Of a stretch of 64,000 nt of DNA, positions 15,985 to 51,686 are shown one piece after another; the stretch's first letter is position 1, and the number at the start of each line of letters is the position of its first letter. A program made the translations under genes and the position numbers. The notes below the pieces were generated by a model. That model was not told where the DNA came from and did not search any database. It saw nothing but the letters and a program-made list of their open reading frames with translations. Origin of the DNA: Betaproteobacteria bacterium (GTDB lineage: Bacteria; Pseudomonadota; Gammaproteobacteria; Burkholderiales; SG8-41); assembly GCA_023266235.1 (NCBI GenBank), contig JAHFRL010000007.1:15007-79006 (forward strand), in the 5' to 3' direction.

Positions 15985-16000
15985 CGCGTCGCCAGCCCGG

Positions 16001-18382: not shown

Positions 18383-18455
18383 GGCGGCTCATCCCCTCAT
18401 CTGGCGCTCATACCAAAAACTGCTGTGACAAATCCCATGTCAATCTGCCGGCTGC

Positions 18456-19220: not shown

Positions 19221-19231
19221 CGTCTTGGTCG

Positions 19232-21490: not shown

Positions 21491-21737
21491 CCCGCCTCCT
21501 GTAGTGCTGCCGGCTACCCGGCGCGACAAGAGCCGGTTCGGGCCGATAATGGGGCAAGTCCTGTGCCAGACACGGGGCAGCCCGCGTCAGGCATAACCGC
21601 ACCGTGGACGCCTGGCGCTGCACGGCAGGCTTGACCGGCGCTGGGGACGCGCTGTGACGCCGGCCATGAAATCATTTTGATCGATGATTGAACAGGAATT
21701 GTGGCCGGCAGGCTCTGCCCGGACGGAGCGCTACGCC

Positions 21738-22475
21738 CTAGCCGTTCTTGAGGAAGAACTCCATTTTCACGCCCGCCAGTTCGATCACATCATGATCGTT
21801 GAGCTGGTGCGCCTGGGCATCGAGCGCCTTGCCGTTGACGATCGGGAAATTGGCGCCTTCGACATGGGTGATGAAATGGCCGTGCGGCCGGCGTGTAATC
21901 ACCGCCACCTGCACGCCGGGCTTGCCGAGCGTGGTGAGGTTCTTGGTGAGCGCGAGTTCCCTGCCCGCCGACGGCCCGGTCAAAATCTGGACCGCCGCCA
22001 ATTTTTCCGCTTGCTTGGCGGCTGCCGCGACTGCGTGCGGCGGCGGGCCTTGCGTCGTCGTCGTCGCCGCCGGACTGACCTGGGTATCGCCGAAGCCGCC
22101 TGGAGTTGCCTCCATTGCCGCCTTTGCCATCGGCGCGCGTAATACCATGGTTTTCTCGAAATCGGCCACCGAGGCCTGGCCGGCCGCCTGCTCGCTGACG
22201 TATTTCAACTTGTACTTGCCGATCTCGATCACGTCGTTGCTCTGCAGGATGTGCTTCTTGACCGGATTGCCGTTGACGAGCGTGCCGTTGGTGCTGCCGA
22301 GGTCCTCCAGGAACGAATCGTTGAGTATCGTCACGATCAATGCGTGCTCGCCGCTGACCGCCAGATTGTCGATCTGGATGTCGTTGTGCGCTTTGCGTCC
22401 GATGGTGAACCGCTCCTTGTCGAGCGGAACCTCCCTGATAACCGCGTTATCCAGACTCATGATCAACTTCGCCAT
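21738..22475 (-). CDS. protein with two FHA domains
   Basis: The N-terminal FHA has FTIGRKAHNDIQIDNLAVSGEHALI and STNGTLVNG. The C-terminal FHA-like half has LTTLGKPGVQVAVITRRPHGHFITHVEG and NDHDVIELAGVKMEF. A Pro/Ala/Thr linker joins the two halves. Confidence 0.85.
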   Translation of the reverse strand: MAKLIMSLDNAVIREVPLDKERFTIGRKAHNDIQIDNLAVSGEHALIVTILNDSFLEDLGSTNGTLVNGNPVKKHILQSNDVIEIGKYKLKYVSEQAAGQASVADFEKTMVLRAPMAKAAMEATPGGFGDTQVSPAATTTTQGPPPHAVAAAAKQAEKLAAVQILTGPSAGRELALTKNLTTLGKPGVQVAVITRRPHGHFITHVEGANFPIVNGKALDAQAHQLNDHDVIELAGVKMEFFLKNG

Positions 22476-22496
22476 GGCAGTATCCCTGTAACCGTA

Positions 22497-23327
22497 TTAT
22501 CTGAACCAAGCCTTGAATTTGGCAAACCAGCCCGTCGGCGCCCCGAAGTCTTCAAGCACCCGCACCAGGATCACTGAAATGTTGTCGCGCCCGCCGCTGT
22601 CGTTGGCCTGCTGCACCAGCTGCTTTGCCGCCAGCGGCAGGTTCGCCTGCAGCGTGGCCAAGGTGGCGTGGATCTCATCATCCACGACCATATCGCTCAA
22701 CCCGTCCGAGCATAGCAGGTATATATCCCCCGGCTCCACATCATAGGTGTGAACTTCGGTCTCGACCTCGGGATCGATGCCGACCGCGCGCGTCACCAGA
22801 TTCTTGTTCTGCGAGTGGCGCGCCTGCTCTTTGCTTATCATGCCGCTGTCGATTTGTTCCTGCAACAGCGAGTGGTCGCGCGTGATCTGCTCGAACTCAT
22901 CCTGGCGCAGCCGATACAGGCGCGAGTCGCCAATGTGGCCGGTCGTCATGCGGTTGTCGTAAAACAACGCCACTACCAGGGTGGTGCCCATGCCCGCGTA
23001 TTGCGGCTGGCTTTGGGCGGCCTGATAAATCGCGGCATTGGCTTTGGCCGAATTCTCCTTGATCAGCTTGACTGCCAGCGGCTCGCCCGCAGAGCCGTTG
23101 ATTTCGTGCGGCTCGTGTGCTTCGAGCGCCCGCCTCATTTCGGCAGTCAGCATGGCCACCGCGATGCCGCTCGCGACTTCACCCGCATTGTAGCCGCCCA
23201 TGCCGTCGGCAAGCACCGCCAGGCCGATTTCGGCATCAGTTGCAATGCTGTCCTCGTTATGCGAGCGCACCATTCCGGGATCAGTGGCGGTTACAACTTC
23301 AAGCACGGTGCCGAGATTAGCCATCAT
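22497..23327 (-). CDS. PP2C-family Ser/Thr protein phosphatase
   Basis: MVRSHNEDS, LADGMGGYNAGEVAS and GGRDNISVILV. It starts 5 nt after the kinase stop. Confidence 0.9.
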   Translation of the reverse strand: MMANLGTVLEVVTATDPGMVRSHNEDSIATDAEIGLAVLADGMGGYNAGEVASGIAVAMLTAEMRRALEAHEPHEINGSAGEPLAVKLIKENSAKANAAIYQAAQSQPQYAGMGTTLVVALFYDNRMTTGHIGDSRLYRLRQDEFEQITRDHSLLQEQIDSGMISKEQARHSQNKNLVTRAVGIDPEVETEVHTYDVEPGDIYLLCSDGLSDMVVDDEIHATLATLQANLPLAAKQLVQQANDSGGRDNISVILVRVLEDFGAPTGWFAKFKAWFR

Positions 23328-23332
23328 GGTGA

Positions 23333-25912
23333 TTACAGCCCGATGTCGACCACGTCTTGCTTCGCCCCGGCGCCGCCCCCGCCCACGCCCGCTGCGCAGG
23401 CCTTGATCGCCTGCGCCATTTCCTCGCCGGTCTGGTAGCGCGCCTCGGGCTGCTTGGCCAGCGCCTTGTTGATGATATCAACCAGGCACGGCGGCAATTT
23501 GGCGTTGTAAGTCAGGATATCGACGTGCGGCTCGTTGGCGATCTTGAACATCAGCTGCGCCATCGAATCGCCCTGAAATGGCAGTTTTCCGCACGCGAGT
23601 TGATACAGCGTCACGCCGAGCGAAAAAAGGTCGGAGCGACCTTCGATTTTCTTGCCGGCGAGCTGCTCGGGCGACATGTAGCTCGGCGTACCGAGCACCA
23701 TGCCGGTCTTGGTCTTGGACGAATCGGTGATGCGCGCGATGCCGAAGTCAGTGACCTTGACGGTGTCGCTCTCGAGCTCGTACATGATGTTGGCGGGCTT
23801 GATGTCGCGGTGCACGACGCTGTTCGTGTGGGCGTAGGTCAACGCTTCGGCGACGCGCGCGATGATGCTCATCACTTTCGGCAGCGGCAGCAGGTTGTCC
23901 GGCTTGATGAACGGCGTGAGGTCCTTGCCTTTCAGGAACTCCATCGCGATGAACGCAAGATCGTGCTCTTCGCCGGCGTCGAAAATCGTAACAATATGGG
24001 GGTGGTTCAGGCGGCCGGCGGTTTCGGCCTCGCGGAAGAAGCGGTCCTTGACATCCTGCAGCTCGTCGGCCTCGAACTCCTGCGACAGCGCCATGGTCTT
24101 GATCGCCACCACGCGGCCGATTTTCGGGTCCTTGCCCAGATACACGACGCCCATCGCGCCCTTGCCGAGTTCTTTTTCGACCTGGTAGCGGCCGAGCATC
24201 GGTTTTTCGACGCCGCCACCGGGCATGATCACGGTGCCGCCGGGATGGCTGCCACCGCCGCCGAGTATGACGGTTTCCGACATCGCCTTGGCGCGTCCGA
24301 CCCGCTCCGCGATGTCCCTGAACTTCGGATTATTCTCGGCGATGTAGCGGAACGCATTTTCCGCTTTGTTGAACTGGCGCTTGCGCTCGAAATCGAGCGC
24401 CAGGTTATAAACCAGATCGAGCACCGAATCGTCGGGCGGCAGCTTGCGGAAATAGTCGAACGCCGTGTCGAGCTGACCCTGGCCCTGGTAGCCGAGGCCG
24501 AGCATGCGGTGGCTTTGCGCAAGGTCGACGTCCGAACGGGCCTTGCTTTTTTCGGTGACAATAAAATGCTTGGAGACGAGCGCTAAATGCCCGATCAGCA
24601 ACAACGTCGCCGGCAGCATGAGCTGTACCCAGATCGCGCTGGTCGTCATCAACACGAAATGCACGACTAGCAGAAGCACGAAAACTCCAGCCGAAATCAC
24701 CAGTGCCTGGGTTGCCTTAAGGCGCGGCAGCAGCGCAATCAGGTAGGCGGCGATCAATAAAAAAACTAGCAATTCGACCCAGTAAGCCCACGCTGGCGTG
24801 ACGAAAAAATGCTCGGAGAGGATAGAAGACACCGAGTGTGCAAGCACCAGCACGGGCGGCATCGCCGCAGAGACGGGGGTAACCGTCGCGCTGCCGAGAC
24901 CCGCGGCTGTGGGGCCGATCAGTACGATTTTGTTTTCGTACTTGCTGACCGGGATCTTGCCGTTGATCACATCATAGAAAGAGTCAATGGTAAATGCAGC
25001 GCGACCCTCGCGATCCTTGTAGAAATAGGTGTACATCCGGGTCAACGGGTCCGTCGTAATGTTCAGTTTTCCCAGCGTCACTTTTTCACCGGGCTGGATC
25101 TTGATGTCTTCCAGGGTCAGGTTGAGGCTTTTCGCCGCGATCATCATCGACAGAGACGGAAAAGTCTTGTCGAAATTGAGCAGCACCAAGGGTTCGGTGC
25201 GGGTGCCGCCATCAACGTCGGGCGTCGCATTGAGGTGGCCAAGAGCGGCGGCGGACTTGCCGATAATCTCGATAGGATAATCTACCCTTTTCGTGAGCAG
25301 CACGAATTCCTCCGCGCCTTTCGCGACTTTCGGCAGAGCGTTCTTGGCGACATACTCTGGCAATGGCTTGTCTGGATTGCCGCGCGGCTCGCCGAGTTCG
25401 AACAACATCATCGGCACGACGTTGCCGGCCCGCGTGAAACTGTCGGCAAGTTTGCGGTCGACGTTTAGTGTTTCCTCGGCCTCTTTAAGCACCGTGACAA
25501 ATGGCCCCATCGGACTGCTGGCCGCTACTCCGGCCTGATCGGCGGGCGCGCTGTTTATCGCGGCGAGATCGAGAAGCTTGGTGATATAAACGTAACCGGG
25601 GTCGACTTGAGGTTCGGAGAATAGAACGGTGTATGCGATAACCTTGGCTTTGGCAGCGGCCAGCGTGTCGGTCATCTTAGCAAGCACTTCGCGCGACCAC
25701 GGCCACCGACCGATCTTGTCGAGACTGTCGGCATCGATCGCAATGATCGCAACCTTGTCGGACGGTGTGCGTGACGTAGCGACGACGCCAAGGTCGTACG
25801 CCTTGCGCTCCAGACTCGGGATGAGGTCGCTCGCGCGGTTGAACAGCGCGACCACAAGGACAACGACGACCCCGAGAAACCAGTCGGATTTCCAAAAAGT
25901 CAAATTTTTCAT
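23333..25912 (-). CDS. CHASE2 sensor domain / Hanks-type Ser/Thr protein kinase
   Basis: N-terminal TM helix, CHASE2-like ~340 aa, TM helices, then a short TPR-like linker. The kinase core has LGKGAMGVVYLGKD, VVHRDIKPANIM, VTDFGIARI and GTPSYMSPEQ. Confidence 0.9.
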   Translation of the reverse strand: MKNLTFWKSDWFLGVVVVLVVALFNRASDLIPSLERKAYDLGVVATSRTPSDKVAIIAIDADSLDKIGRWPWSREVLAKMTDTLAAAKAKVIAYTVLFSEPQVDPGYVYITKLLDLAAINSAPADQAGVAASSPMGPFVTVLKEAEETLNVDRKLADSFTRAGNVVPMMLFELGEPRGNPDKPLPEYVAKNALPKVAKGAEEFVLLTKRVDYPIEIIGKSAAALGHLNATPDVDGGTRTEPLVLLNFDKTFPSLSMMIAAKSLNLTLEDIKIQPGEKVTLGKLNITTDPLTRMYTYFYKDREGRAAFTIDSFYDVINGKIPVSKYENKIVLIGPTAAGLGSATVTPVSAAMPPVLVLAHSVSSILSEHFFVTPAWAYWVELLVFLLIAAYLIALLPRLKATQALVISAGVFVLLLVVHFVLMTTSAIWVQLMLPATLLLIGHLALVSKHFIVTEKSKARSDVDLAQSHRMLGLGYQGQGQLDTAFDYFRKLPPDDSVLDLVYNLALDFERKRQFNKAENAFRYIAENNPKFRDIAERVGRAKAMSETVILGGGGSHPGGTVIMPGGGVEKPMLGRYQVEKELGKGAMGVVYLGKDPKIGRVVAIKTMALSQEFEADELQDVKDRFFREAETAGRLNHPHIVTIFDAGEEHDLAFIAMEFLKGKDLTPFIKPDNLLPLPKVMSIIARVAEALTYAHTNSVVHRDIKPANIMYELESDTVKVTDFGIARITDSSKTKTGMVLGTPSYMSPEQLAGKKIEGRSDLFSLGVTLYQLACGKLPFQGDSMAQLMFKIANEPHVDILTYNAKLPPCLVDIINKALAKQPEARYQTGEEMAQAIKACAAGVGGGGAGAKQDVVDIGL

Positions 25913-26183: not shown

Positions 26184-26210
26184 CAAAAAAAAGCCACGCA
26201 TAACGTGGCT
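26184..26210 (-). terminator. Rho-independent terminator of the oxc-frc-formyltransferase operon
   Basis: On the minus strand, the stem AGCCACG / CGTGGCT with a 5-nt loop is followed by T8 (plus-strand A-run 26184-26192). It lies 29 nt after the stop at 26239. Confidence 0.75.
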
Positions 26211-26238
26211 TTTCTGCCGAGGAGCCAGGTGCCAGAAA

Positions 26239-27171
26239 TCAGCCGCCGAGCACGCTGCCAGCCTTGATGCCGCCTGCCTGCGCCAGCTCCCCGCCGCTCA
26301 CCTTTTTGCCATCCCCGAACCTGGCCTTCAGCACTTCGATCAAGCCGCCTTGGGCCGTGATCTTGAAGCTTTGCGCCGTGACGTCAGTGACCTCGCCGAT
26401 CTTCCCGGGCACGTCCGCAAAACGCCGGAAAACGGCCTTGCGCGCGTCAAAAAGCTGTAACTTTTTGCCGCTGAGCGTCGTCCATGCGCCCGGCGCCGGG
26501 TTGCACCCCCGGATCAGGTTGTAGACATGGTCGATGGGCTTGGCCCAGTCTATCCGCGCCTCCCCGGCGCGGCACCAGCCCTCGTAACTCGCCTGCGACT
26601 CATCCTGCACCGTCTCCCGGTGTTTTCCCTTTAACACGAGATCGGCGGCCTCAAGCATGGCCTGTACGCCCAGCGGGAACAGGCGCTCGAAATAGACGGT
26701 GCCCAGCGTGTCGTCGGGGCTGATGGGCGTCTTCTTCTGCAGGATCACTGCGCCTTCATCCAGCCCGTCCGAGGGACGGAAAATGGTCAGGCCCGTCTCC
26801 GTGTCGCCTTTGATGATCGGCCAGTTGATCGAACTCGGGCCGCGATACTTCGGCAGCAGTGACGGGTGATACTGGATGGTGCCGTGTTTGGGTATGTTGA
26901 CGAATTCCTGCGGTGCGAACTGCAGCACGAAAGCCATGATGCCGATGTCGGCGTTAGCGTCCTGCATGGCCTGCGCCGCTTCCCGCGCCCGTAGCGACTT
27001 GAACTGGTGAACCTGCAGCCCCGTTTCCTGCGCCGCGAGACGCAACGCATCCGGCCGCGCGCCTTCCTTCTCGGGCGCGCAGAACACGGCTGCAACCTCG
27101 TCGCCGCGCGCGAGGAAGGCCTCGAACACGGCCTTGCCGTAGTCCTGCTGGCCGATGATTGCGATTTTCAT
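26239..27171 (-). CDS. stand-alone formyltransferase resembling the N-terminal (hydrolase/formyl-transfer) domain of 10-formyltetrahydrofolate dehydrogenase
   Basis: At 310 aa it matches the length I remember for that domain. MKIAIIGQQDYGKAVFEAFLARGDEVAAVFCAPEK, IQYHPSLLPKYRGPSSINW and SDGLDEGAVILQK align by eye to the ALDH1L1 N-terminal domain as I remember it (MKIAVIGQS..G..V.....GHEVVGVFT.PDK; YHPSLLPRHRGASAINW; DDGLDTGDLLLQK). A C-terminal Fmt-like subdomain is present. Confidence 0.75.
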   Translation of the reverse strand: MKIAIIGQQDYGKAVFEAFLARGDEVAAVFCAPEKEGARPDALRLAAQETGLQVHQFKSLRAREAAQAMQDANADIGIMAFVLQFAPQEFVNIPKHGTIQYHPSLLPKYRGPSSINWPIIKGDTETGLTIFRPSDGLDEGAVILQKKTPISPDDTLGTVYFERLFPLGVQAMLEAADLVLKGKHRETVQDESQASYEGWCRAGEARIDWAKPIDHVYNLIRGCNPAPGAWTTLSGKKLQLFDARKAVFRRFADVPGKIGEVTDVTAQSFKITAQGGLIEVLKARFGDGKKVSGGELAQAGGIKAGSVLGG

Positions 27172-27257
27172 GATTGTTACTTTCTTCGAAACAGGTGAGG
27201 CGGTAGTCGAAAGAGCAAATCAGCGCGTGAGTTCTGCGCCTCTCGCCTTACGGGCCG

Positions 27258-28529
27258 CTACGCGGCCTTCTTCGGCGGCGCGGAAAACGCGCCCGCGTTC
27301 CTCAACTTGACGATCTGCTCGTCGGCGTAGCCAAGCACCTCCCTGAGGATCTCGTCAGTGTGCTCGCCGAGGAGCGGGGAGCGCTCGATCCTGGCCGGCG
27401 AATCCGAAAGCTTGATCGGCATACCCACGTTCCACCATTTGCCGCGCTGCGGGTGGTCGAGTTCGACATACATCTCGCGCAGCCTGACGTGCTCGTCGTT
27501 GGCGAGGTCTTCCGTGGACATGATGGGGCCGCAAGGCACGTTGATCTCATTGAGAATGCCCATCAACTCGCGCTTGCCATGCTTCAGCGCAAACTCGCCG
27601 ATAATCTCCCACATGTCATTCTGGTATCTGCGACGGTTATCGATGGTGGCGAACTTCGGATCGGTCGCCAGATCGGGCAGGCCGAGCTCGGGCCCGATGC
27701 GCCTGGCAAGCGCGTCCCACACGGCTTCCTGGACAACGACGTAGATAAAATCGTTGGTCCCCCCCGGATTGCAGCGGATGGCATTGCCCAACTGGCCGCC
27801 ACCGGAGTCATTGCCGGCGCGCGGCACCGCCCCCATGCCCTGATGCGTGGCCACTGAGTATTCCGCCAGCGACTCGCGGATAAGACGCTGGTGATCGCGC
27901 CACTTGACCCGGCACAGGTTCATGATGCCGTCCATCATGGCGACCTCGACGTATTGCCCCTCGCCGGTGCGGTCGCGCTGGCGCAGCGCGGCGAGTAGCC
28001 CGATCGCCAGGTGAAGACCCGTTCCGGTATCTCCGATCTGCGCGCCAGCCACGAAAGGCGGACCGTCGGGAACACCAGTGGTGCTCATCGCGCCGCCCAT
28101 CGCCTGGGCCACGTTTTCATAGGCCTTGAAGTTGGCATAAGGTCCCGAAGACCCGAAGCCCTTGATGGAACCCATCACGATGCGCGGGTTGATTTCGTGC
28201 ACTTTCTCCCAGGCAAATCCGAAACGGTCGAGCACCCCGGGACCGAAGTTTTCCATGACGATGTCGCATTTCTTCAGCAGCTCGACGAACACGGCCTTGC
28301 CATCGGGCGACTTCATGTTGACCGTGATCGAGCGCTTGTTGCAATTGAGCATCGTAAAATAAAGGCTGTCCGCATTCGGCACGTCGCGCAGCTGGCCGCG
28401 CGTCGCATCGCCGACGGGCGGCTCCAGCTTGATCACGTCCGCCCCCATCCACGCGAGCAGTTGCGAGCAGGTTGGCCCCGCCTGCACGTGCGTCATGTCG
28501 AGTATTCGAATTCCTTTGAGTGCTTCCAT
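27258..28529 (-). CDS. frc: formyl-CoA:oxalate CoA-transferase (type III CoA-transferase)
   Basis: MEALKGIRILDMTHVQAGPTCSQLLAWMGADVIKLEPP, LYFTMLNCNKRSI and KAYENVAQAMGGAMSTTG align closely to E. coli YfdW / O. formigenes Frc as I remember them. ATG 28529 has GGAGA 5 nt upstream. Confidence 0.9.
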   Translation of the reverse strand: MEALKGIRILDMTHVQAGPTCSQLLAWMGADVIKLEPPVGDATRGQLRDVPNADSLYFTMLNCNKRSITVNMKSPDGKAVFVELLKKCDIVMENFGPGVLDRFGFAWEKVHEINPRIVMGSIKGFGSSGPYANFKAYENVAQAMGGAMSTTGVPDGPPFVAGAQIGDTGTGLHLAIGLLAALRQRDRTGEGQYVEVAMMDGIMNLCRVKWRDHQRLIRESLAEYSVATHQGMGAVPRAGNDSGGGQLGNAIRCNPGGTNDFIYVVVQEAVWDALARRIGPELGLPDLATDPKFATIDNRRRYQNDMWEIIGEFALKHGKRELMGILNEINVPCGPIMSTEDLANDEHVRLREMYVELDHPQRGKWWNVGMPIKLSDSPARIERSPLLGEHTDEILREVLGYADEQIVKLRNAGAFSAPPKKAA

Positions 28530-28590
28530 TCTGATCTCCAAAAATGCTTCGGCAGATAGATGGCTACCTGCTCTCGCTCAACTGTTTGAC

Positions 28591-30318
28591 TTATTTCTTT
28601 TTTGCGCTTTGCGGATTCAGGCTCGTGATGCGACCGCTTTCGGTGCCGGCGCTTTCATCGATCACGGCATTGATGAGCGTGGGCTTGCGCGAGCGGATGG
28701 CTTCTTCCATGGCCTTGCGCAGCTCCGCCGGGGTCGTGGCGTGCACGCCCACGCCACCGAAGGCTTCCATGAGCTTTTCATAGCGTGCATCCTTGACGAA
28801 CACCAAGGGTGCCGGATCGCGGCCACCGGTCGGATTGACTTCGTCGCCGCGGTAGACGCCGTTGTTGTTCAAGATCACCACGCAGACCGGCAGGTTGTAG
28901 CGGCAGATGGTCTCGACTTCCATGCCGGAGAAGCCGAAGGCGCTGTCGCCCTCGATCGCGATCACCGGCAGGCGGCTGACCACGGCGGCCGCGACGGCAA
29001 AGCCCATGCCGATGCCCATCACGCCCCAGGTGCCGACGTCCAGGCGCTTGCGCGGCTTGTACATGTCGACGATGCTGCGGGTGAAGTCGAGCGCGTTGGC
29101 GCCTTCGTTGACCAGGATGGCGTCCGGGTTGGCCTTGACGATGTCGCGCACCACGTTCAGCGCGCTGTGAAAATTCATCGGCGTCGGATTCTTGGCCAGG
29201 GTCTCGGCCATCTTGGCAACGTTCTTGTTCTTGCGCTCGGCGATGGCGTTCAGCCAGTCCGCCGGCGGCTTGGCCCAGTTGGAGCCGATGCCGGCAAGCA
29301 GCGCGGACACGCAGGAACAGATGTCGCCGACCACCGGGGCGTCGATGCGGACGTTGCTGTCCGCCTCCTGCGGCGAGATGTCGATCTGGATGAACTTCTG
29401 GCCGCCCCACGCCTTGGCGTCCTTGCCGCCCCAAGTCTTGCCCTTGCCATGCGAGAGCAGCCAGTTCAGGCGGGCGCCGACCAGCATCACCACGTCAGCC
29501 TCGGGCAGCACATAGGAGCGCGCGGCGGCAGCGGACTGCTCGTGCGTGTCCGGCAGCAGGCCCTTGGCCATGGCCATGGGCAGGTAGGGGATGCCGGTCT
29601 TCTCGACCAGGGCGCGAATGTCCGCGTCCGCCTGGGCGTAAGCGGCACCCTTGCCCAGCACGATGAGCGGACGCTTGGCGCTCTTGAGCAGCTCGAGCGC
29701 GCGCTGCACCGCATCTTGGGCCGGGATCTGGCGCGGCGCCGGATCGACCACCTTGATCAGCGACTTCTTGCCCGCTTCTGCATCCATGGTCTGCGGGAAG
29801 AGCTTGGCCGGCAGGTCGAGGTAGACGCCGCCCGGGCGGCCGGAGACGGCGGCACGGATGGCGCGCGCGATGCCCACGCCGATGTCCTCGGCGTGCAGCA
29901 CGCGGAAGCCGGCCTTGCACAGCGGCTTGGCGATGGCCAACTGGTCCATCTCCTCGTAGTCACCCTGCTGCAGGTCGACGATCTCGCGCTCGCTGGAGCC
30001 GCTGATGAGGATCATCGGGAAGCAGTTGGTGGTGGCGTTGGCCAGTGCGGTCAGGCCGTTGAGGAAGCCGGGCGCGGACACCGTCAGGCAGATGCCCGGC
30101 TTTTGCGTCATGAAGCCGGCGATGGCGGCGGCATTGCCGGCGTTCTGCTCATGGCGGAACGAAATCACGCGCATGCCTGCGGCCTGTGCCTTGCGGGCAA
30201 AGTCGGTGATCGGGATACCGGGCAGACCGAAGATCGTGTCGATGCCGTTGAGTTTGAGGGCATCGATGACCAGGTGAAAGCCGTCGGTCACTTCTTGTGA
30301 TTGTGCATCGGTTGTCAT
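28591..30318 (-). CDS. oxc: oxalyl-CoA decarboxylase (ThDP-dependent)
   Basis: [52 protein letters not shown] and the ThDP motif region [22 protein letters not shown]...NNNG. It sits directly upstream of frc. Confidence 0.9.
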
Positions 30319-30465: not shown

Positions 30466-31155
30466 ATGTTTTGGTATACTGGTGTTTGCATGCCCTGCCT
30501 TGCCGCAGTGCCTGAAACAGCGCTGTTTCACAAACCGATGACATCCCTCGCCCGCCACGCGGAGGCCAAGATCGTGCGGCTGCAACTGCGCCAGAACCTG
30601 GTGCTGCGGCACATGACGCGCGAGCAATGGGACGAGCTCGAGCCGCAGCTCGACATCACCGATTACGCGAAGGGAGCGCTGCTCGAAAACCAGGGCGATT
30701 CGTCGATGCGGCAGTATTTCATCCTCGACGGCATACTCAAGCGCGTGGTATCGAACCGGGAGGGCCGCGAAATGATCCTGCGCTTCGCCGCCGAAACCGA
30801 GATCGACACCAGTTACGCCGCGTGGCGCCTCAAAACCACCATCCCATACTCGATCCGCGCGGTAACGCGCGTGCGCACCGCGCAGTTGTCGATGGAAGAG
30901 TGGGTCGCGTTCGTGGAACGCCATCCAGCGGTCAAGAGCCAGTTCGAGTTCGGGGTAATGAAACTGATGAGCGAGGTGATGGCGCATACCATCACGCTGC
31001 ACCTGCTCGATGCGCCCGGCCGCATCGCGCGCTTCATGCGCAAGCACTCAGCGCTGGTCGAGCGCCTGCCGAAAAAAGAGCTTGCCTCCTACCTCAACCT
31101 GTCGCCGGAAACCCTGTCGCGCCTCAAGCGCCGCGGCAAAATCGACCTGCAATAA
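30466..31155 (+). CDS. Crp/Fnr-family transcriptional regulator (FNR-like DNA-recognition helix, no FNR cysteine cluster evident)
   Basis: The cNMP-binding-like fold has ALLENQGDSSMRQYFILDGILKRVVSNREGREMIL. The C-terminal HTH is LASYLNLSPETLSRLKRRG, which contains the E--SR motif that FNR uses to read TTGAT half-sites. The start is uncertain: ATG 30466, 30490 or 30538, none with a good SD. Confidence 0.8.
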   Translation: MFWYTGVCMPCLAAVPETALFHKPMTSLARHAEAKIVRLQLRQNLVLRHMTREQWDELEPQLDITDYAKGALLENQGDSSMRQYFILDGILKRVVSNREGREMILRFAAETEIDTSYAAWRLKTTIPYSIRAVTRVRTAQLSMEEWVAFVERHPAVKSQFEFGVMKLMSEVMAHTITLHLLDAPGRIARFMRKHSALVERLPKKELASYLNLSPETLSRLKRRGKIDLQ

Positions 31156-32256: not shown

Positions 32257-32261
32257 GATGG

Positions 32262-34647: not shown

Positions 34648-34822
34648 TGCACATACCTCCTGGTGGCCTTGCGATGGGAAATAACAGCATATCATGTCGG
34701 AATTCTTCCGGGCAAATGCCAGCTGTCCGCCGCAACCGTATTTATACCCGGGACTTTTCGACACTGCGGCGGGGGCATCTGCAGCCACCGGGGACGGTGC
34801 AATACCCATCACGTTCGCGTGT

Positions 34823-36610: not shown

Positions 36611-38104
36611 CTATACTCCGCGCAGCTTGGCAATTGCCATCGAGATCAGCGGCCAGAACAACAGCACCAGCGCCAGCGCGGTGATGCTGCCGACCAGCCG
36701 GTTCGAAAAGAAAATCGCCATGTCGCCCTGCGCCATCAGCATCGACTGGCGGAACGAATCCTCGGCGCGGTCGCCGAGCACCAAGGCCAGCACCAGCGGC
36801 GCCAGCGGGTAATCGAGCTTCTTGAACACGTAACCGACCACGCCGAACATCAGCATGTACCAGATGTCGAGCATCGCACTGTGCACGGTGTAAGCGCCGA
36901 TCGCGCAAATCACGATGATGATCGGCGCGATGATCGAGAACGGCACGCGCAGGATCGCGGCGAACAGCGGCACGCAGGTGAGCACGATGATGAGGCCGGC
37001 GATGTTGCCGAGGTACATGCTCGCGATCAGGCCCCACACGAAATCCTTCTGCTCAACGAACAGCAGCGGACCCGGCTGCAGGCCCCAGATCAAAAGCCCC
37101 CCGAGCAGCACCGCCGCGGTCGGCGAACCGGGGATGCCGAGCGCGAGCATCGGCAACAAGGCGGAAGTGCCGGCGGCGTGCGCGGCGGTTTCCGGCGCCA
37201 CCACGCCTTCGAGCTGACCGCTGCCGAACTTGTCGCCGTCGCGTGACATGCGCTTGGCGATGCCGTAGCTCATGAACGACGCCGGCGTCGCGCCACCCGG
37301 CGTGATCCCCATCCAGCAGCCGATCAGGCAGCTGCGCAACGAAGTCAGCCAGTACTGCGGCAGCTTTTTCCACGTTTCCAGTACGACCTTGGGATTGATG
37401 GTGGCGGTCTTGCCGGTGAACGACAACCCTTCTTCCATCGTCAGCAGGATCTCGCCGATGCCGAACAGACCGATCACCGCGATCAGGAAATCGAAGCCGC
37501 GCATCAGGTCGGTGAAACCGAAAATCAGCCGCAACTGGCCGGTGACGGTGTCCATGCCGACCGCGGCGAGCGCAAAACCGAGCATCATCGCCGCGAGCGT
37601 CTTGAACGGAGAGCCCTTGCCCATGCCGATGAAGCTGCAGAACGTGAGCAAGTAGACCGAGAAGAATTCGGGCGGCCCGAACTGCAGCGCGAATTTGGCG
37701 ACCAGCGGTGCGAGAAAGGTGATCATCACCACCGCGACTAACGCACCGATGAATGAAGAGGTGAACGCGCCGGTCAGCGCTTCGCCGGCGCGCCCCTGCT
37801 GCGCCATCGGATAGCCGTCGAAGGTGGTCGCGACAGACCACGGCTCGCCCGGAATGTTGAACAGCACCGAGGTGATCGCGCCGCCGAACAGCGCGCCCCA
37901 GTAGATGCACGACAGCATGATAATCGCCGAAGTCGGCGGCATCGTGAACGTGAGCGGCAGCAGGATCGCGACGCCGTTGGCGCCGCCGAGACCGGGCAGC
38001 ACGCCGATGATCACGCCGAGCACGATGCCGATCATCATCAACATCAGGTTGAACGGCGTCAGCACCACCGCAAACCCGTGAAATAATGCGTTGACTTCTT
38101 CCAA
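36611..38104 (-). CDS. tctA: tripartite tricarboxylate transporter, large permease TctA
   Basis: 497 aa and polytopic. FHGFAVVLTPFNLMLMMIGIVLGVIIGVLPGLGG is typical of a TctA N-terminus. TTG start at 38104. Confidence 0.85.
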   Translation of the reverse strand: MEEVNALFHGFAVVLTPFNLMLMMIGIVLGVIIGVLPGLGGANGVAILLPLTFTMPPTSAIIMLSCIYWGALFGGAITSVLFNIPGEPWSVATTFDGYPMAQQGRAGEALTGAFTSSFIGALVAVVMITFLAPLVAKFALQFGPPEFFSVYLLTFCSFIGMGKGSPFKTLAAMMLGFALAAVGMDTVTGQLRLIFGFTDLMRGFDFLIAVIGLFGIGEILLTMEEGLSFTGKTATINPKVVLETWKKLPQYWLTSLRSCLIGCWMGITPGGATPASFMSYGIAKRMSRDGDKFGSGQLEGVVAPETAAHAAGTSALLPMLALGIPGSPTAAVLLGGLLIWGLQPGPLLFVEQKDFVWGLIASMYLGNIAGLIIVLTCVPLFAAILRVPFSIIAPIIIVICAIGAYTVHSAMLDIWYMLMFGVVGYVFKKLDYPLAPLVLALVLGDRAEDSFRQSMLMAQGDMAIFFSNRLVGSITALALVLLFWPLISMAIAKLRGV

Positions 38105-38146
38105 TTCCCCCCCTGCCTGACGGATCGCGCCGCGCCTGTCCTGCGA

Positions 38147-38668
38147 TCAATAACCGAGGAAGCGCAGCGGCTCGAGGGAGCCTTTGAACAGCGGCACCTT
38201 GAACCACACTTCGAACATCAGGAACAAACTGACATTGACGGACAAACCGACGGCAACGCTTTTGAACCACGTGTACTTGCCGAGCCATACCATGAACACG
38301 GTGATATAGATCGCGGAGGCGACGTACAGGCCCACATACTGCACGCCGATCACGTAGACCGCCGCCGGGATCAGCACCGTCAGCACCAGCTTGAACGGCC
38401 CCCAAGTGACGAACAATTCGCCATCCTCGGGTTTGGTCAATATCGCCTGCGCCAGGGTCACCAGGCTTGCAATGCAGATCAGAACACCGATGTAGAACGG
38501 AAAGTACCCCGACTGCGGGCCGTCGCTGCCCCATTTCGAGCCCAGCCGGTAGCTGTCGAACGCCACGATCGCGCCCAAGGCAAATACCAGCAATGCAACG
38601 ATGATATCCGCCGTGCGCATCGAGATTCCGGCGCGATCACCGGCGCCGGATTGCTGATTTTCATCCAT
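38147..38668 (-). CDS. tctB: tripartite tricarboxylate transporter, small permease TctB
   Basis: 173 aa with four predicted TM segments, located between tctC and tctA. Confidence 0.75.
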   Translation of the reverse strand: MDENQQSGAGDRAGISMRTADIIVALLVFALGAIVAFDSYRLGSKWGSDGPQSGYFPFYIGVLICIASLVTLAQAILTKPEDGELFVTWGPFKLVLTVLIPAAVYVIGVQYVGLYVASAIYITVFMVWLGKYTWFKSVAVGLSVNVSLFLMFEVWFKVPLFKGSLEPLRFLGY

Positions 38669-38767
38669 CGCAATGATTGAGCTTGGCTGTCACGGCGGCG
38701 CGCGTTACGTCGCGCACGCCAAAGCGAAGACCGCGCGGATCACAACGCACGGCCTTCGCCGGGATCA

Positions 38768-39790
38768 TTATGGTTTGGCCAGGAACCCCGCTTCACGCAT
38801 CAATTCGCGGTGGGTGTTTTCGGCTTTCTCGACCCACTTCGCATATTCGGCGCCGCTCATGAAGGTGGTGTTGAACGCGCCGTCTTCCATGAACTTCTTC
38901 CATTCCGGGGTCTCGCGCACTTTCTTGAACAGGCCCACGTAATAATCGACCTGTTCCTTGGTCACGCCGCCGGACATGAAAATGCCGCGCAGCATCACAT
39001 AATCCATCGGCACCCCGGATTCTTTGCAGGTCGGAATGTCGTACCACGACATGGTGTCGGTGACCTTGTTCTTGTACGGCATGCGCGTGTCGTCAAACAC
39101 GCACAGCGGCCGCAGCTTGCCGGCACGCCACTGCGCCACCGCCTCGATCGGATTGTTGACAGTCGAGTCGACATGCTTGCCGACGAGCTGCACCGCGACG
39201 TCGCCGCCGCCCTTGAACGGCACATAGATAAACTTCACGCCGACGGCTTTCTCGATCGCGACGGTTATGATCTGGTCTTCCTGCTTCGAGCCGGTGCCGG
39301 CCATCTTGAACTTGTTGGGTCCGCCCGCCTTCACCGCGTCGAGATACTCCTTCGCGCTCTTGTACGGCGTTTCGGCATTGACCCACAACACGAACTGGTC
39401 GAGCGCCAGCATCGCCACCGGCGTCAGGTCCTTCCAGTTGAACGGCACGCCGGTTGCCAGCGGCGTGGTGAACAGGTTGGAAAGCGTGATGATGATTTTA
39501 TGCGGTTCGCCTTTCGATTCCTTGACGGCGAGAAAGCCTTCCGCGCCCGCGCCGCCTGATTTGTTGACCACGATCAGGGGCTGTTTCATCAGGTTGTTCT
39601 TGGAAATCACGCCCTGCAGCAAACGCGCCATCTGGTCGGCGCCGCCGCCGGTGCCGGCAGGGACCACGAACTCGACCGGCTTGGTCGGTTCCCAGTCGGC
39701 GGCGGACGCCGCTGGAACCGCCACGGCAAAAGCTCCCGCGCTCAGCGCGCATAGCGTGCGACGCAGCATCAATGCTGAATAATTATACAT
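38768..39790 (-). CDS. tctC: tripartite tricarboxylate transporter substrate-binding protein (TctC/Bug family)
   Basis: Signal peptide, then KPVEFVVPAGTGGGADQMAR. ATG 39790 has AGGAGG upstream. Confidence 0.85.
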   Translation of the reverse strand: MYNYSALMLRRTLCALSAGAFAVAVPAASAADWEPTKPVEFVVPAGTGGGADQMARLLQGVISKNNLMKQPLIVVNKSGGAGAEGFLAVKESKGEPHKIIITLSNLFTTPLATGVPFNWKDLTPVAMLALDQFVLWVNAETPYKSAKEYLDAVKAGGPNKFKMAGTGSKQEDQIITVAIEKAVGVKFIYVPFKGGGDVAVQLVGKHVDSTVNNPIEAVAQWRAGKLRPLCVFDDTRMPYKNKVTDTMSWYDIPTCKESGVPMDYVMLRGIFMSGGVTKEQVDYYVGLFKKVRETPEWKKFMEDGAFNTTFMSGAEYAKWVEKAENTHRELMREAGFLAKP

Positions 39791-40366: not shown

Positions 40367-40392
40367 AAATGGATCTCCAATTTCGATCGTAT

Positions 40393-41151: not shown

Positions 41152-41243
41152 GAAACTTTTCCTCCCCGCCCGACCGCGGTCGGGCCTCCTCGCGCCGTAA
41201 ATGGGGGCCTTATGATACCCGAGCGTCCCGGCGCGCACCATCC

Positions 41244-41282: not shown

Positions 41283-42959
41283 TTAAAACAGCCCGACCAC
41301 CCTGCCCTCGTCGTCGAGGTCGATTTTCTCCGCCGACGGCACCTTGGGGAGTCCCGGCATGGTCATGATGTCGCCGCACACCATGACGACGAATTCCGCG
41401 CCGGCGGCGAGCCGCACTTCGCGCACGTTGATCACGTGGCCGGACGGCGCGGCGCGCAGCTGCGGGTCGGTCGAGAACGAGTACTGTGTCTTGGCGACGC
41501 ACACCGGGTAGTGCCCGTAGCCGTCGTCCTGCAGCTTCCTGATCTGCGCGCGCACCTTGGCGTCGGCGGTCACGTCGGACGCACCGTAGATCTTGGTCGC
41601 GATGGTCTTGATCTTGTCCCACAGCGGCAGCGCGTCTTCGTAGACATACTTGAAATTGGACGGCACCTTCTCGACCAGATCGACCACGGTGCGCGCCACT
41701 TCCTCCGCACCCTTGCCACCGTCGGCCCAGTGCGTCGCCAGAATCACTGGCGCTTCGTGGTGCGCCATTTTTCTCTTGAGCAGCTCGATCTCGGCGGGGG
41801 TGTCGAAGTTGAAACGGTTGATCGAAACCACGCACGGCAGTCCATAGTGGTTGCGTATGTTGTTGACGTGGCGCTCGAGATTGGTAATGCCCTTTTCCAG
41901 CGCCGCGAGGTTCTCCTTGTTGACCTCCTTGAGGTCGACCCCGCCGTGGTATTTGAGCGCGCGCCCCGTCGCCACGATCACCACCGCCGACGGCCGCAGT
42001 CCCGACTTGCGGCATTTGATGTCGATGAACTTCTCGGCGCCGAGATCGGCGCCAAAGCCGGCCTCGGTCACCACGTAATCGGCGAGTTTCAACGCGGTCC
42101 TGGTCGCGATCACCGAATTGCAGCCGTGCGCGATATTGGCGAACGGGCCGCCGTGGATGAACGCCGGATTGTTCTCGAGCGTCTGCACCAGGTTCGGCTG
42201 CAGCGCGTCCTTCAGCAGCACCGTCATCGCGCCATGCACTTTGAGGTCTTTTGCCAGCACCGGTTTCTGGTCGCGCGTGTAGCCGACGACGATGTTGCCG
42301 AGGCGATTCTTCAGATCCTTGAGCGAAGTCGCGAGGCAGAAAATCGCCATCACTTCGGAGGCGACCACGATGTCAAAACCGTCCTGGCGCGGGTAGCCGT
42401 TGCCGGGGCCGCCGAGCGCCACCGTGATATCGCGCAGCGCGCGGTCGTTCATGTCCATCACGCGCTTCCAGGCGATGCGCCGCACGTCGACGCCGAGCGC
42501 GTTGCCGTGGTGGATGTGATTGTCGATTGCCGCCGCGAGCAGATTGTTGGCGAGGCCGATCGCGCTGAAGTCGCCGGTGAAATGCAGGTTGATGTCTTCC
42601 ATCGGCACCACCTGCGCATAGCCGCCGCCGGCGGCGCCGCCCTTCATGCCGAACACCGGCCCGAGGCTCGGCTCGCGCAGGCAGATGATCGCTTTCTTGC
42701 CGATCCTGTTGAGCGCGTCCCCCAGGCCGACCGTGGTCGTGGTCTTGCCTTCGCCTGCCGGCGTCGGTGTGATCGCCGTCACCAGGATCAGCTTGCCGTC
42801 GGGCTTGTCCCCGAGGCTGTCAACGTAGTCGAGCGCCACTTTGGCTTTGTAACGGCCGTAGGGTATGAGGTGCTCTTCGGGAATGCCGAGCTTTTCGGCG
42901 ATCTGGGTGATGCGCTGCATTTTCGCAGCTTGCGCGATTTCAATATCCGATAACGCCAT
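41283..42959 (-). CDS. fhs: formate--tetrahydrofolate ligase
   Basis: [26 protein letters not shown] and [15 protein letters not shown], with full-length similarity to Fhs/FtfL. Confidence 0.95.
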
Positions 42960-45766: not shown

Positions 45767-46048
45767 TGCGGTCTCCTCTGGCTAATGATGCGTCAAAACG
45801 TTGCTGTGCGGAATCGCCAGGGCCGGCAACACAACGGGCAAACAATGAGTATTCAGATCGAATAAGGCCCGCGACATGGACACCATCCGCAGCCATCAAT
45901 CAGACCCAAAAGCAACGAGTGTGCCAGTCCCGGCCAACGGCGAAAGAATATACCTTTCCACCTTATTTTGCACCAAGGCAGTGCAACCAAAGCCGTTGCT
46001 GCGCCAGATCGAGGCGTCGCGCACGGCAAGGCCCGGCTTGCGCGCAGG

Positions 46049-49908: not shown

Positions 49909-50012
49909 GACTTGACCCCTAAAGCTTCACCGCAAAGGACGCAAAGTGCGCGAAGGTTCGCAAAGGAATCCCATTTCAAGAATTTCTTGGGCGTCTTGGC
50001 GGCTCAAGCTTT

Positions 50013-51686
<1,674 letters not shown>

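What the first reader, a model, noticed from the sequence alone, without database searches (positions are those of the whole stretch)
26239..27171. Stand-alone homologue of the formyl-transfer domain of 10-formyl-THF dehydrogenase as the last gene of the oxc-frc operon: candidate formyl-CoA:THF formyltransferase
The 310-aa protein aligns by eye along its whole length with the N-terminal domain of ALDH1L1. The match covers the IGQ..G start, YHPSLLPxxRG.S.INW, the DGLD.G catalytic Asp region and the Fmt-like C-terminal subdomain. It follows frc after 86 nt with no terminator, and a strong terminator ends the operon at 26184-26210. In ALDH1L1, as I recall the Krupenko-lab work, this domain passes the formyl group of 10-formyl-THF to the thiol of a 4'-phosphopantetheine arm, giving a formyl-thioester. 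CoA carries the same phosphopantetheine thiol, and formyl-CoA is exactly the product of Oxc. Run in reverse, such an enzyme would move the formyl group of formyl-CoA directly onto THF. That would bypass free formate and the ATP spent by Fhs. I am not aware of a described enzyme with that activity.
Basis: partly seen in the sequence, partly recalled or inferred. Interest (0 to 1): 0.8.

Follow-up and report, generated by a model that had tools for sequence, protein, structure and literature searches.

The report
Oxalate-operon formyl-THF/CoA formyltransferase candidate
The last gene of this oxalate-degradation operon encodes a stand-alone relative of the formyl-transfer domain of animal 10-formyl-THF dehydrogenase, is mislabelled "Met-tRNA formyltransferase" in databases, and most likely moves a formyl group between folate and coenzyme A, a reaction already known from two other enzymes.

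Summary
ORF 26239-27171(-) encodes a 310-aa two-domain formyltransferase. It is the last gene of an oxc-frc operon that ends in a strong terminator. Its closest solved relatives are the N-terminal domains of ALDH1L1 (204 bits, against 131 for E. coli Fmt). It fails the Fmt model cut-off, lacks Fmt's tRNA-recognition loop and has Gln in place of the canonical Asn. It keeps all six key Nt-FDH residues.

The gene sits directly after frc in at least 58 of 71 genomes. In lineages only 43-54% identical the order is (oxc-)frc-FT-fhs.

A formyl exchange between formyl-CoA and THF is the best reading. However, the reaction 10-formyl-THF + CoA -> formyl-CoA was already shown for LctF (2025) and proposed for HypX (2019).

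The direction is not settled. The ATP-saving argument is flawed, because Frc already conserves the thioester. A priming route, Fhs -> FT -> Frc, which would be ATP-driven oxalate activation, is at least as plausible.

No enzyme assay exists. I rate this a new variant of a known kind, of moderate to high interest.

The parts
26239..27171 (-). FT: stand-alone ALDH1L1-Nt-like formyltransferase of 310 aa. Candidate 10-formyl-THF:CoA formyltransferase.
   Evidence: ORF and translation. Pfam N and C domains. Best PDB relatives are Nt-FDH. Key residues F85, H102, S104, R110, D138 and Y196 are conserved, and Gln100 replaces the canonical Asn.
26185..26215 (-). Intrinsic terminator that closes the oxc-frc-FT operon.
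   Evidence: A 13-bp hairpin followed by a U-run. Fold energy -30.6 kcal/mol, z -2.98.
27172..27257 (-). 86-nt frc-FT spacer with no terminator.
   Evidence: No terminator-like or promoter-like site on the minus strand. Fold z 0.27. In other genomes the spacer has a median of 25 nt and is sometimes an overlap.
27258..28541 (-). frc, formyl-CoA:oxalate CoA-transferase. The likely ATG start is at 28529.
   Evidence: TIGR03253 563.6 bits (cut-off 504.2) and NF003809 579 bits. Translation.
28591..30318 (-). oxc, oxalyl-CoA decarboxylase, first gene of the operon.
   Evidence: NF006721 1023 bits (cut-off 557) and TIGR03254 1005 bits.
30466..31155 (+). Divergent Crp/Fnr-like regulator. It is conserved next to oxc in related genomes.
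   Evidence: cNMP_binding plus HTH_Crp_2. Found in the same relative position in about 35 related loci.
36611..39790 (-). TctC-TctB-TctA tripartite carboxylate transporter, syntenic with the operon. It may be the oxalate uptake system.
   Evidence: Pfam TctA, TctB and TctC. TctA lies upstream of crp-oxc-frc-FT in 31 of 81 loci and in strain La 6.
41283..42959 (-). fhs, formate-THF ligase, the other enzyme that makes or uses 10-formyl-THF.
   Evidence: FTHFS 905 bits. Lies within 10 kb of FT in 16 of 81 loci. Lies immediately downstream of FT in L083, L090 and L092.

Best explanation
FT is a folate-dependent formyltransferase of the ALDH1L1 N-terminal type whose co-substrate is the thiol of free CoA. 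With His102 and Asp138 polarising the N10-formyl group, it would interconvert 10-formyl-THF + CoA-SH and THF + formyl-CoA. This couples the formyl-CoA/oxalyl-CoA cycle run by Frc and Oxc to the folate one-carbon pool.

The reaction should be reversible. My committed reading of the net role is supply of formyl-CoA. Fhs charges formate onto THF with ATP. FT moves the formyl group to CoA. Frc then swaps CoA onto oxalate. Together these steps would amount to an ATP-driven oxalate activation in which formate acts catalytically. It would prime the cycle and replace thioester lost by formyl-CoA hydrolysis or by withdrawal of oxalyl-CoA for assimilation. Flux in the opposite direction is possible when formyl-CoA is abundant.

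Shown: the family placement, the conserved catalytic residues and the conserved frc-FT(-fhs) linkage. Inferred: CoA as the substrate, and the direction.

My estimate for the chemistry irrespective of direction is about 0.65. The figure given as confidence is for the chemistry together with the formyl-CoA-supplying role.
For: 1. Family. Nt-FDH is the best PDB match (204 bits against 131 for Fmt). The FT family plus ALDH1L Nt separates from Fmt with 82% bootstrap, and the core clade has 100%. All six key Nt-FDH residues are conserved (residue list from PMC4388273).

2. Thiol chemistry of the nearest characterised relative. In Nt-FDH the formyl group is taken by the 4'-PP thiol or by mercaptoethanol.

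3. Context.
- Frc lies directly upstream on the same strand in at least 58 of 71 loci from Beta-, Alpha- and Gammaproteobacteria and Acidobacteria. The median gap is 25 nt, with some overlaps.
- A cultured Paracoccaceae strain carries oxc-frc-FT-fhs at 43% identity, inside a serine-cycle island.
- Lineages at 52-54% identity carry frc-FT-fhs, with FT and fhs overlapping in L090.
- A lineage at 39% identity sits beside a family-III CoA-transferase and an Oxc-like ThDP enzyme.
- The frc-FT pair travels together into Acidobacteria at 81-87% identity, next to a different ThDP enzyme.

4. Precedent for the reaction. LctF (in vitro) and the HypX N-domain both work towards formyl-CoA.

5. Need for a primer. 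YfdE is described as a priming enzyme for the Oxc/Frc cycle, and formyl-CoA has a half-life of 1.9 h (PMC3720670).

6. Operon logic. In oxc-frc-FT-fhs, the order Fhs -> FT -> Frc -> Oxc is sequential. Under the opposite direction FT and Fhs would be redundant routes to the same product.
Against: - There is no enzymatic or genetic data for any member of this clade.
- CoA binding cannot be read from the sequence. The model's fold is as close to Fmt and ArnA (TM 0.88-0.92) as to Nt-FDH (TM 0.86).
- Context cannot give the direction.
- By my own recollection of standard free energies, the thioester is about 10 kJ/mol more energy-rich than the N10-formyl amide. Equilibrium would then favour formyl-CoA -> 10-formyl-THF, so the supply direction needs pulling by Frc and Oxc.
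- Many family members at about 40% identity have no frc nearby (Desulfobacterales, P0160, P0131). The shared function of the wider family may therefore be something else.
- Part of the core clade is linked to an aldehyde dehydrogenase instead of frc.
Confidence: 0.4

Rival explanations
1. The chemistry is the same, but the net physiological flux runs formyl-CoA + THF -> 10-formyl-THF + CoA. Oxalate-derived C1 units would then enter the folate pool and the serine cycle without free formate and without Fhs.
For: All the context evidence above applies equally. The La 6 island holds glyA2, folD_2, hprA and an Sga-like aminotransferase next to oxc-frc-FT-fhs, so 10-formyl-THF is wanted there. By my recollection of free energies, this is the thermodynamically downhill direction.
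Against: There is no net energetic gain. Frc already conserves the thioester, so each diverted formyl-CoA requires a new oxalate activation. FT would be redundant with the co-operonic Fhs. All characterised relatives (ALDH1L1 Nt, HypX, LctF) run the other way. Diversion would also deepen the thioester deficit that oxalyl-CoA reduction creates.
Confidence: 0.25
2. FT transfers the formyl group of 10-formyl-THF to an acceptor other than free CoA. Candidates are a protein-bound phosphopantetheine, another small thiol or an amine. Under this reading the frc linkage reflects regulation or a still unknown step.
For: The nearest characterised homologue uses a tethered 4'-PP arm, not CoA. Within the core clade, a subclade with 97% bootstrap contains three loci (L074, L060, L076) in which an orthologous aldehyde dehydrogenase takes the place of frc. 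A fourth ALDH-linked locus, L063, lies in a neighbouring subclade. Wider family members have unrelated contexts.
Against: No ACP-like gene or domain was found next to FT in the window. None was found in a search of the related loci fetched up to that point, which included the ALDH-linked ones. Frc's substrate is formyl-CoA, and frc is the one constant neighbour across 39-100% identity. The Asn that is strictly conserved in the N-formyltransferases acting on amines compared here (nine Fmt sequences and ArnA) is missing.
Confidence: 0.15
3. FT is a 10-formyl-THF hydrolase, functionally like PurU or the isolated Nt-FDH. It would release formate and regenerate THF.
For: The isolated Nt-FDH shows hydrolase activity in vitro (PMC4388273). 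Formate dehydrogenase genes lie nearby in the window and in some related loci.
Against: Nt-FDH hydrolysis itself depends on a thiol. A hydrolase encoded immediately next to fhs, even overlapping it, would form an ATP-wasting futile cycle. There is no PurU match and no ACT domain. This reading does not explain the frc linkage.
Confidence: 0.08
4. FT is a second methionyl-tRNA formyltransferase, as the public annotation says.
For: Database names. The two-domain architecture and the fold are the same as in Fmt.
Against: TIGR00460 scores 154.7 bits against a cut-off of 201.5, while genuine Fmt representatives score 308-326. The RGKKL tRNA-recognition insertion is absent. Asn is replaced by Gln100 in all 83 core-clade sequences, whereas all 9 Fmt sequences keep Asn. 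The clade is separate from Fmt (82% bootstrap). The gene is annotated fmt_2 in strain La 6, which implies another fmt in that genome.
Confidence: 0.02

Closest known systems
N-terminal (hydrolase / formyl-transfer) domain of 10-formyl-THF dehydrogenase ALDH1L1/ALDH1L2
   Same: It is the best sequence match (E 2.5e-59) and is about 36% identical over the whole length. It has the same two subdomains. It shares the YHPSLLP..RG.S.INW and DGLD motifs and all six key residues (F, H, S, R, D, Y). The canonical Asn is lost in both. The ALDH1L Nt domains nest inside the bacterial family in the tree.
   Different: FT is a stand-alone 310-aa protein. It has no carrier domain with a 4'-PP arm and no fused aldehyde dehydrogenase. 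It is bacterial, sits in an oxalate operon, and its presumed thiol is free CoA.
LctF of the lactacystin cluster (Streptomyces lactacystinicus), a 10-formyl-THF:CoA formyltransferase
   Same: It is a stand-alone Fmt-like formyltransferase. It is the one enzyme shown in vitro to catalyse the reaction proposed here (PMC11730586).
   Different: It serves polyketide starter-unit supply, not oxalate or C1 catabolism. It is reported as 32% identical to Fmt. Its sequence (LC830955) was not available, so its relation to this clade is untested.
N-terminal domain of HypX (CO-ligand synthesis for [NiFe]-hydrogenase)
   Same: It belongs to the same superfamily. It is proposed to transfer the formyl group from 10-formyl-THF to bound CoA (PMC6802093).
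   Different: It is only a remote relative (43 bits, TM 0.67, 20% identity). It is fused to an enoyl-CoA-hydratase-like decarbonylase, and CoA acts there as a bound prosthetic group.
YfdE / UctC, acetyl- or succinyl-CoA:oxalate CoA-transferases
   Same: [quoted passage not shown]
   Different: They belong to an unrelated protein family (class III CoA-transferases). They use an existing acyl-CoA and not the folate pool.
Methionyl-tRNA formyltransferase (Fmt)
   Same: Same architecture and fold, same His/Asp catalytic pair, and the same public annotation.
   Different: FT scores below the family cut-off, lacks the tRNA-recognition loop, has Asn replaced by Gln, forms a separate clade and sits in a different genomic context.

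Membership tests
Methionyl-tRNA formyltransferase (Fmt, TIGR00460) | Score at or above the curated equivalog cut-off (201.5 bits) | tested here: not met
   FT scores 154.7 bits. Genuine Fmt representatives P0250, P0252 and P0265 score 308-326 bits.
Methionyl-tRNA formyltransferase (Fmt, TIGR00460) | Basic insertion loop in the Rossmann domain that recognises the tRNA acceptor arm (E. coli ..RPAGRGKKL..) | tested here: not met
   The five-residue RGKKL insertion is present in E. coli Fmt and P0250. It is absent from the window FT, L083, L074, P0271 and ALDH1L1 Nt. The role of this loop is from my own knowledge of the Fmt structures.
Methionyl-tRNA formyltransferase (Fmt, TIGR00460) | Asn-x-His...Asp catalytic triad | tested here: not met
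   His102 and Asp138 are present. The Asn is replaced by Gln100 in 83 of 83 core-clade sequences, while 9 of 9 Fmt sequences and ArnA keep Asn.
ALDH1L1-type N-terminal formyl-transfer domain (Nt-FDH) | Closest sequence relationship and a shared clade | tested here: met
   Nt-FDH gives the top PDB hits at 196-204 bits, against 131 or less for Fmt. The FT family plus ALDH1L Nt separates from Fmt with 82% bootstrap.
ALDH1L1-type N-terminal formyl-transfer domain (Nt-FDH) | Key residues Phe89, His106, Ser108, Arg114, Asp142 and Tyr200 (PMC4388273) | tested here: met
   The equivalents F85, H102, S104, R110, D138 and Y196 are all conserved. Five of them are invariant in the core clade; F85 is Phe in 82 of 83 sequences.
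ALDH1L1-type N-terminal formyl-transfer domain (Nt-FDH) | Fusion to a 4'-PP carrier domain and an aldehyde dehydrogenase domain | tested here: not met
   FT is a 310-aa stand-alone ORF flanked by frc and a terminator. No carrier-like region was found in the related loci fetched up to that point.
ALDH1L1-type N-terminal formyl-transfer domain (Nt-FDH) | Formyl transfer from N10 of THF to a phosphopantetheine thiol | not testable with these tools
   This needs an enzyme assay. It is inferred only from homology and the frc linkage.
10-formyl-THF:CoA formyltransferases (LctF, HypX N-domain) | Catalysis of 10-formyl-THF + CoA <-> THF + formyl-CoA | not testable with these tools
   The activity is documented for LctF and proposed for HypX. 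There is no assay for this protein.
10-formyl-THF:CoA formyltransferases (LctF, HypX N-domain) | Specific sequence relationship to HypX-N or LctF | tested here: inconclusive
   HypX is only a remote superfamily match (43 bits, TM 0.67). The LctF sequence could not be obtained.
PurU (10-formyl-THF deformylase) | ACT domain plus a PurN-like catalytic domain, and a match to TIGR00655 or NF004684 | tested here: not met
   There is no PurU hit. The only related hit is PurN at 53.5 bits (cut-off 150.1).
ArnA-type and sugar N-formyltransferases | Score at or above the family cut-off, plus a sugar-nucleotide context | tested here: not met
   ArnA model 127 bits (cut-off 777) and PRK06988 143 bits (cut-off 316). 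No sugar-nucleotide genes lie nearby.

The most novel reading that the evidence does not exclude
Fhs, FT and Frc together form a self-contained, ATP-driven route from oxalate to oxalyl-CoA in which formate acts as a catalyst. Oxalotrophs that withdraw oxalyl-CoA for assimilation need such a route, and none has been assigned to these organisms. The same bacterial clade would be the free-standing form of the ALDH1L1 N-terminal domain. It would use free CoA where animals use a tethered phosphopantetheine arm. The FT plus aldehyde dehydrogenase gene pairs seen in some Alphaproteobacteria would then be a split, CoA-mediated 10-formyl-THF dehydrogenase.
Probability: 0.3. Interest if true: 0.75.

Novelty: new variant of a known kind. 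Interest (0 to 1): 0.62.

Why it matters
If FT exchanges formyl groups between CoA and THF, the textbook oxalate pathway (Frc, Oxc, then formate) gains a direct junction with folate one-carbon metabolism. This would change how carbon and energy budgets of oxalotrophs are drawn. It may also explain how the Frc/Oxc cycle is primed and replenished.

It would correct a widespread misannotation: thousands of environmental sequences carry the label "methionyl-tRNA formyltransferase".

It would supply a natural, apparently well-expressed enzyme linking formyl-CoA and 10-formyl-THF for synthetic formate and formyl-CoA pathways.

It would also identify the bacterial relatives from which the N-terminal domain of animal ALDH1L1 may derive.

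Tried and rejected
1. The first genome scan, with the 19-sequence alignment A1, failed because no stretch was conserved enough. I repeated it with 9 sequences. Only the best 80 of at least 591 loci were returned, so the survey covers 63% identity and above. More distant lineages had to be sampled one at a time.

2. The structure comparison does not discriminate. Nt-FDH leads by E-value, but Fmt and ArnA have equal or higher TM-scores.

3. I tested the idea that the aldehyde dehydrogenases next to FT in L074, L060, L076 and L063 are specifically ALDH1L1-like. They are orthologous to each other (65-83% identity). However, they match generic class 1/2 ALDHs better (515 bits) than ALDH1L1-Ct (440 bits). 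This remains only a lead.

4. The search for an ACP-like carrier with the ALDH1L1 intermediate region was compromised. P0190 is a truncated isoform, and its hits fell in the ALDH part. The second query, from P0266, gave nothing.

5. The Desulfobacterales clade and the contexts of P0131 and P0160 gave no consistent neighbour.

6. LctF could not be placed in the tree because no sequence was held.

7. An Rfam scan of the window found nothing, so no riboswitch is detected.

8. The apparent absence of frc in L073 comes from a frameshifted assembly; the same is likely but was not confirmed for L013. The count of 58 of 71 is therefore a lower bound.

9. Literature searches for an oxalate-linked formyltransferase found none.
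Full report
**Observation**

The window holds an ATG-initiated ORF of 310 codons at 26239-27171 on the minus strand. It carries Pfam Formyl_trans_N (residues 1-171) and Formyl_trans_C (204-297).

Directly upstream on the same strand lie frc (27258-28541; TIGR03253 563.6 bits, cut-off 504.2) and oxc (28591-30318; TIGR03254 1005 bits, cut-off 739.4). The frc-FT spacer is 86 nt. It has no terminator-like or promoter-like site and no unusual folding. A 13-bp hairpin with a U-run follows the stop codon at about 26185-26215. A Crp-like regulator is transcribed divergently from oxc.

In what follows I call the protein FT.

**Family placement**

A sequence search of the PDB puts the N-terminal domains of 10-formyl-THF dehydrogenase first. 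Rat 1s3i scores E 2.5e-59 and 204 bits, and zebrafish 4qpd covers query residues 1-300. E. coli Fmt follows at 131 bits, ArnA at 115, HypX at 43 and PurN at about 36.

FT scores 154.7 bits on the curated Fmt model, whose cut-off is 201.5. Genuine Fmt representatives score 308-326. There is no PurU match.

I built a neighbour-joining tree from 305 columns with 300 bootstrap replicates.
- The bacterial FT family plus the ALDH1L N-terminal domains separates from Fmt with 82% support.
- The 63-100% identity core clade that contains the window protein has 100% support.
- The animal domains are monophyletic (100%) and nested among the bacterial proteins. The deep branching order is unresolved.

FT is 36.5% identical to mammalian ALDH1L1-Nt, 29.5% to E. 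coli Fmt and 27.7% to ArnA-Nt over about 300 aligned columns.

Several residue-level features agree with this placement.
- The five-residue RGKKL insertion present in Fmt is absent from FT and from ALDH1L1-Nt.
- The key residues defined for zebrafish Nt-FDH are Phe89, His106, Ser108, Arg114, Asp142 and Tyr200 (PMC4388273). All are conserved in FT as F85, H102, S104, R110, D138 and Y196.
- The Asn of the classical Asn-x-His...Asp triad is invariant in nine Fmt sequences and in ArnA. It is Gln in all 83 core-clade sequences. It varies (Q/C/N/E/G/I) in other family members and is I/C/S/V in ALDH1L.

An AlphaFold model (pLDDT 94.2) matches Nt-FDH best by E-value. Fmt and ArnA have equal or better TM-scores, so the fold does not discriminate.

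**Conservation of the linkage**

About 8000 close homologues exist in public data, and where a source names them it is "methionyl-tRNA formyltransferase". A scan of one genome per species returned the best 80 loci, at 63-92% identity. They come from Burkholderiales and other Betaproteobacteria, Acidobacteria, Alpha- and Gammaproteobacteria.

Among the 71 loci with at least 1.3 kb of sequence upstream, 58 have frc directly upstream on the same strand. The median gap is 25 nt, and several pairs overlap. At least one apparent exception (L073) is a frameshifted assembly.

The typical betaproteobacterial layout is fhs ... tctA - crp(divergent) - oxc - frc - FT. The window has this layout too, with fhs at 41283-42959 and TctCBA at 36611-39790.

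The Acidobacteria carry frc-FT at 81-87% identity to the window pair, grouping with it at 100% bootstrap. There the pair lies behind a different ThDP enzyme that falls below the Oxc cut-off. The frc-FT pair therefore moves as a unit.

The linkage holds well beyond the core clade.
- A cultured marine Paracoccaceae strain (La 6, plasmid pLA6_002) has, at 43% identity, the order oxc-frc-FT(fmt_2)-fhs_2. The operon lies in an island with formate dehydrogenase, ppc, two sucCD-like ligases, TctABC, a ketopantoate-reductase-like gene, glyA2, an Sga-like aminotransferase, hprA and folD_2.
- Two metagenomic lineages at 52-54% identity show frc-FT-fhs, with FT and fhs overlapping in one of them.
- A lineage at 39% identity sits between a family-III CoA-transferase and an Oxc-like ThDP enzyme.

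Not every relative is frc-linked.
- In three loci of the core clade (L074, L060, L076) an orthologous aldehyde dehydrogenase lies immediately upstream of FT. In a fourth (L063) it lies two genes downstream. L074, L060, L076 and L077 form one subclade (97% bootstrap), but no ALDH was found beside FT in L077.
- Another group lies beside a BhcA/Sga-like aminotransferase and fhs.
- The Desulfobacterales clade and a few other lineages show no consistent neighbour.

**What is already known**

In ALDH1L1 the N-terminal domain removes the formyl group from 10-formyl-THF. The group is then carried on the 4'-phosphopantetheine arm. In vitro, mercaptoethanol plays the role of that thiol (PMC8748788, PMC4388273).

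LctF of the lactacystin cluster was shown in vitro to form formyl-CoA from 10-formyl-THF and CoA (PMC11730586). [quoted passage not shown]

I found no paper that places a formyltransferase in oxalate metabolism. A 2024 review of oxalotrophy does not mention one.

**Mechanism and direction**

The best-supported reading is a reversible transfer of the formyl group between N10 of THF and the thiol of free CoA. Three lines of evidence point to it:
- the thiol chemistry of the nearest characterised homologue;
- frc, whose substrate is formyl-CoA, as the one constant neighbour;
- fhs, whose product is 10-formyl-THF, as the frequent second neighbour.

CoA as the substrate is inferred, not shown.

The net direction cannot be read from the sequence or the context. 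In the Frc/Oxc cycle the thioester of formyl-CoA is not wasted, because Frc passes it to the next oxalate. A formyl-CoA diverted to THF saves the Fhs ATP but costs a new oxalate activation.

The cycle does lose thioester in two ways. Formyl-CoA hydrolyses, with a half-life of 1.9 h against 92 h for acetyl-CoA. Oxalyl-CoA can also be reduced to glyoxylate for assimilation. A priming enzyme for the cycle has a precedent in YfdE (PMC3720670).

Fhs -> FT -> Frc would be such a primer. Its net reaction is oxalate + ATP + CoA -> oxalyl-CoA + ADP + Pi, with formate acting catalytically. This makes the genes of an oxc-frc-FT-fhs operon sequential steps of one pathway. It also matches the direction of all three characterised relatives.

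The two readings share the same chemistry (about 0.65 combined). By my own recollection of standard free energies, equilibrium favours 10-formyl-THF by roughly 10 kJ/mol, so the supply direction would need pulling by Frc and Oxc.

**Rival readings**

- A thiol-independent hydrolase is unlikely. Placed next to fhs, it would create a futile ATP-consuming cycle.
- A second Fmt is excluded for practical purposes.
- An acceptor other than free CoA remains possible. The ALDH-linked subclade and the unlinked distant clades keep this open.

**Verdict**

The protein is a new, physiologically distinct clade of a known enzyme superfamily. Its probable reaction has recent precedent. What is new is its conserved place in oxalate and C1 metabolism, its kinship with ALDH1L1 and its systematic misannotation.

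Only enzyme assays and genetics can settle the substrate and the direction. Cultured carriers exist for both kinds of experiment.

Noticed in passing
window 31246-36205 (minus strand): A four-gene cluster lies between tctA and the crp/oxc promoter. It consists of 2-oxoacid:acceptor oxidoreductase subunits (beta-like 31246-32256, alpha-like 32262-33518, a gamma/delta-like ferredoxin subunit 33505-34836) and a GltD-like flavoprotein (34823-36205). The best NCBIfam matches are the oxalate oxidoreductase subunits, but all fall below cut-off (350 vs 590, 385 vs 500, 94 vs 230). Phenylglyoxylate dehydrogenase Pad subunits also match. None of the 81 related loci has this cluster within 10 kb of FT. 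It could be an NAD(P)-linked oxidoreductase for oxalate or glyoxylate.
   Followed up: partly
L074 8388-10972; L060 2276-4816; L076 3004-6241; L063 4236-7563: In some Alphaproteobacteria (Pseudaminobacter salicylatoxidans, Mesorhizobium) and in two MAGs, the core-clade FT is paired with an aldehyde dehydrogenase instead of frc. These dehydrogenases are orthologous to each other (65-83% identity) and 41-45% identical to ALDH1L-Ct. The arrangement resembles a split 10-formyl-THF dehydrogenase without a carrier domain. The ALDH is not specifically ALDH1L1-like: generic ALDHs score higher.
   Followed up: partly
L001 6960-10933; L004-L012: Acidobacterial MAGs (Terriglobia, Bryobacteraceae) carry frc-FT at 81-87% identity to the betaproteobacterial window pair. 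Upstream is a ThDP enzyme only 26-27% identical to Oxc. It scores 466 bits on PRK05858 (cut-off 587), 343 on 2-hydroxyacyl-CoA lyase and 245 on Oxc. This suggests horizontal transfer of the frc-FT module to a different, possibly formyl-CoA-producing, ThDP partner.
   Followed up: partly
window 14326-25912 (minus strand): Downstream of the terminator lies a signalling cluster. It comprises a CHASE2 Ser/Thr kinase (23333-25912), a PP2C phosphatase, an FHA protein, a CHASE2 adenylate/guanylate cyclase, a class-II-like cNMP phosphodiesterase, a GAF-MshEN T2SSE-type ATPase and a GAF-HD protein. The kinase follows FT in about 25 related betaproteobacterial loci (51-73% identity). This may be plain synteny or a regulatory link through the neighbouring cNMP-binding Crp-like regulator.
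   Followed up: no
window 47086-54033 (minus strand): NAD-linked formate dehydrogenase alpha (47086-49908) and NuoF-like beta (50013-51770) subunits lie next to sucC-like (52825-54033) and probable sucD genes. The SucC-like protein also scores 536 bits on malate-CoA ligase (cut-off 604). Together with fhs, this makes the region a C1/oxalate island like the one on the plasmid of strain La 6.
   Followed up: partly
P0145 (representative at 42% identity): One family representative has Tyr in place of the catalytic Asp (QRPYEGP) and Ala in place of the Pro that follows the His. It may be an inactive or re-purposed member.
   Followed up: no
L086 9092-16921; L084 10528-11926: In Desulfobacterales, the distant FT clade lies near a selenocysteine-type formate dehydrogenase-like molybdoenzyme with HdrA-, MvhD- and NuoF-like partners. 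This hints at a formate/C1 link, but the association is not consistent.
   Followed up: no
window 40190-41200 (+), 45968-46903 (+), 6704-7435 (-), 13008-13820 (+): These are ORFs with coding-like GC3 but no Pfam match; 40190-41200 and 45968-46903 also have no NCBIfam match. The first lies between fhs and tctC. The whole window has no Rfam match at gathering thresholds.
   Followed up: no
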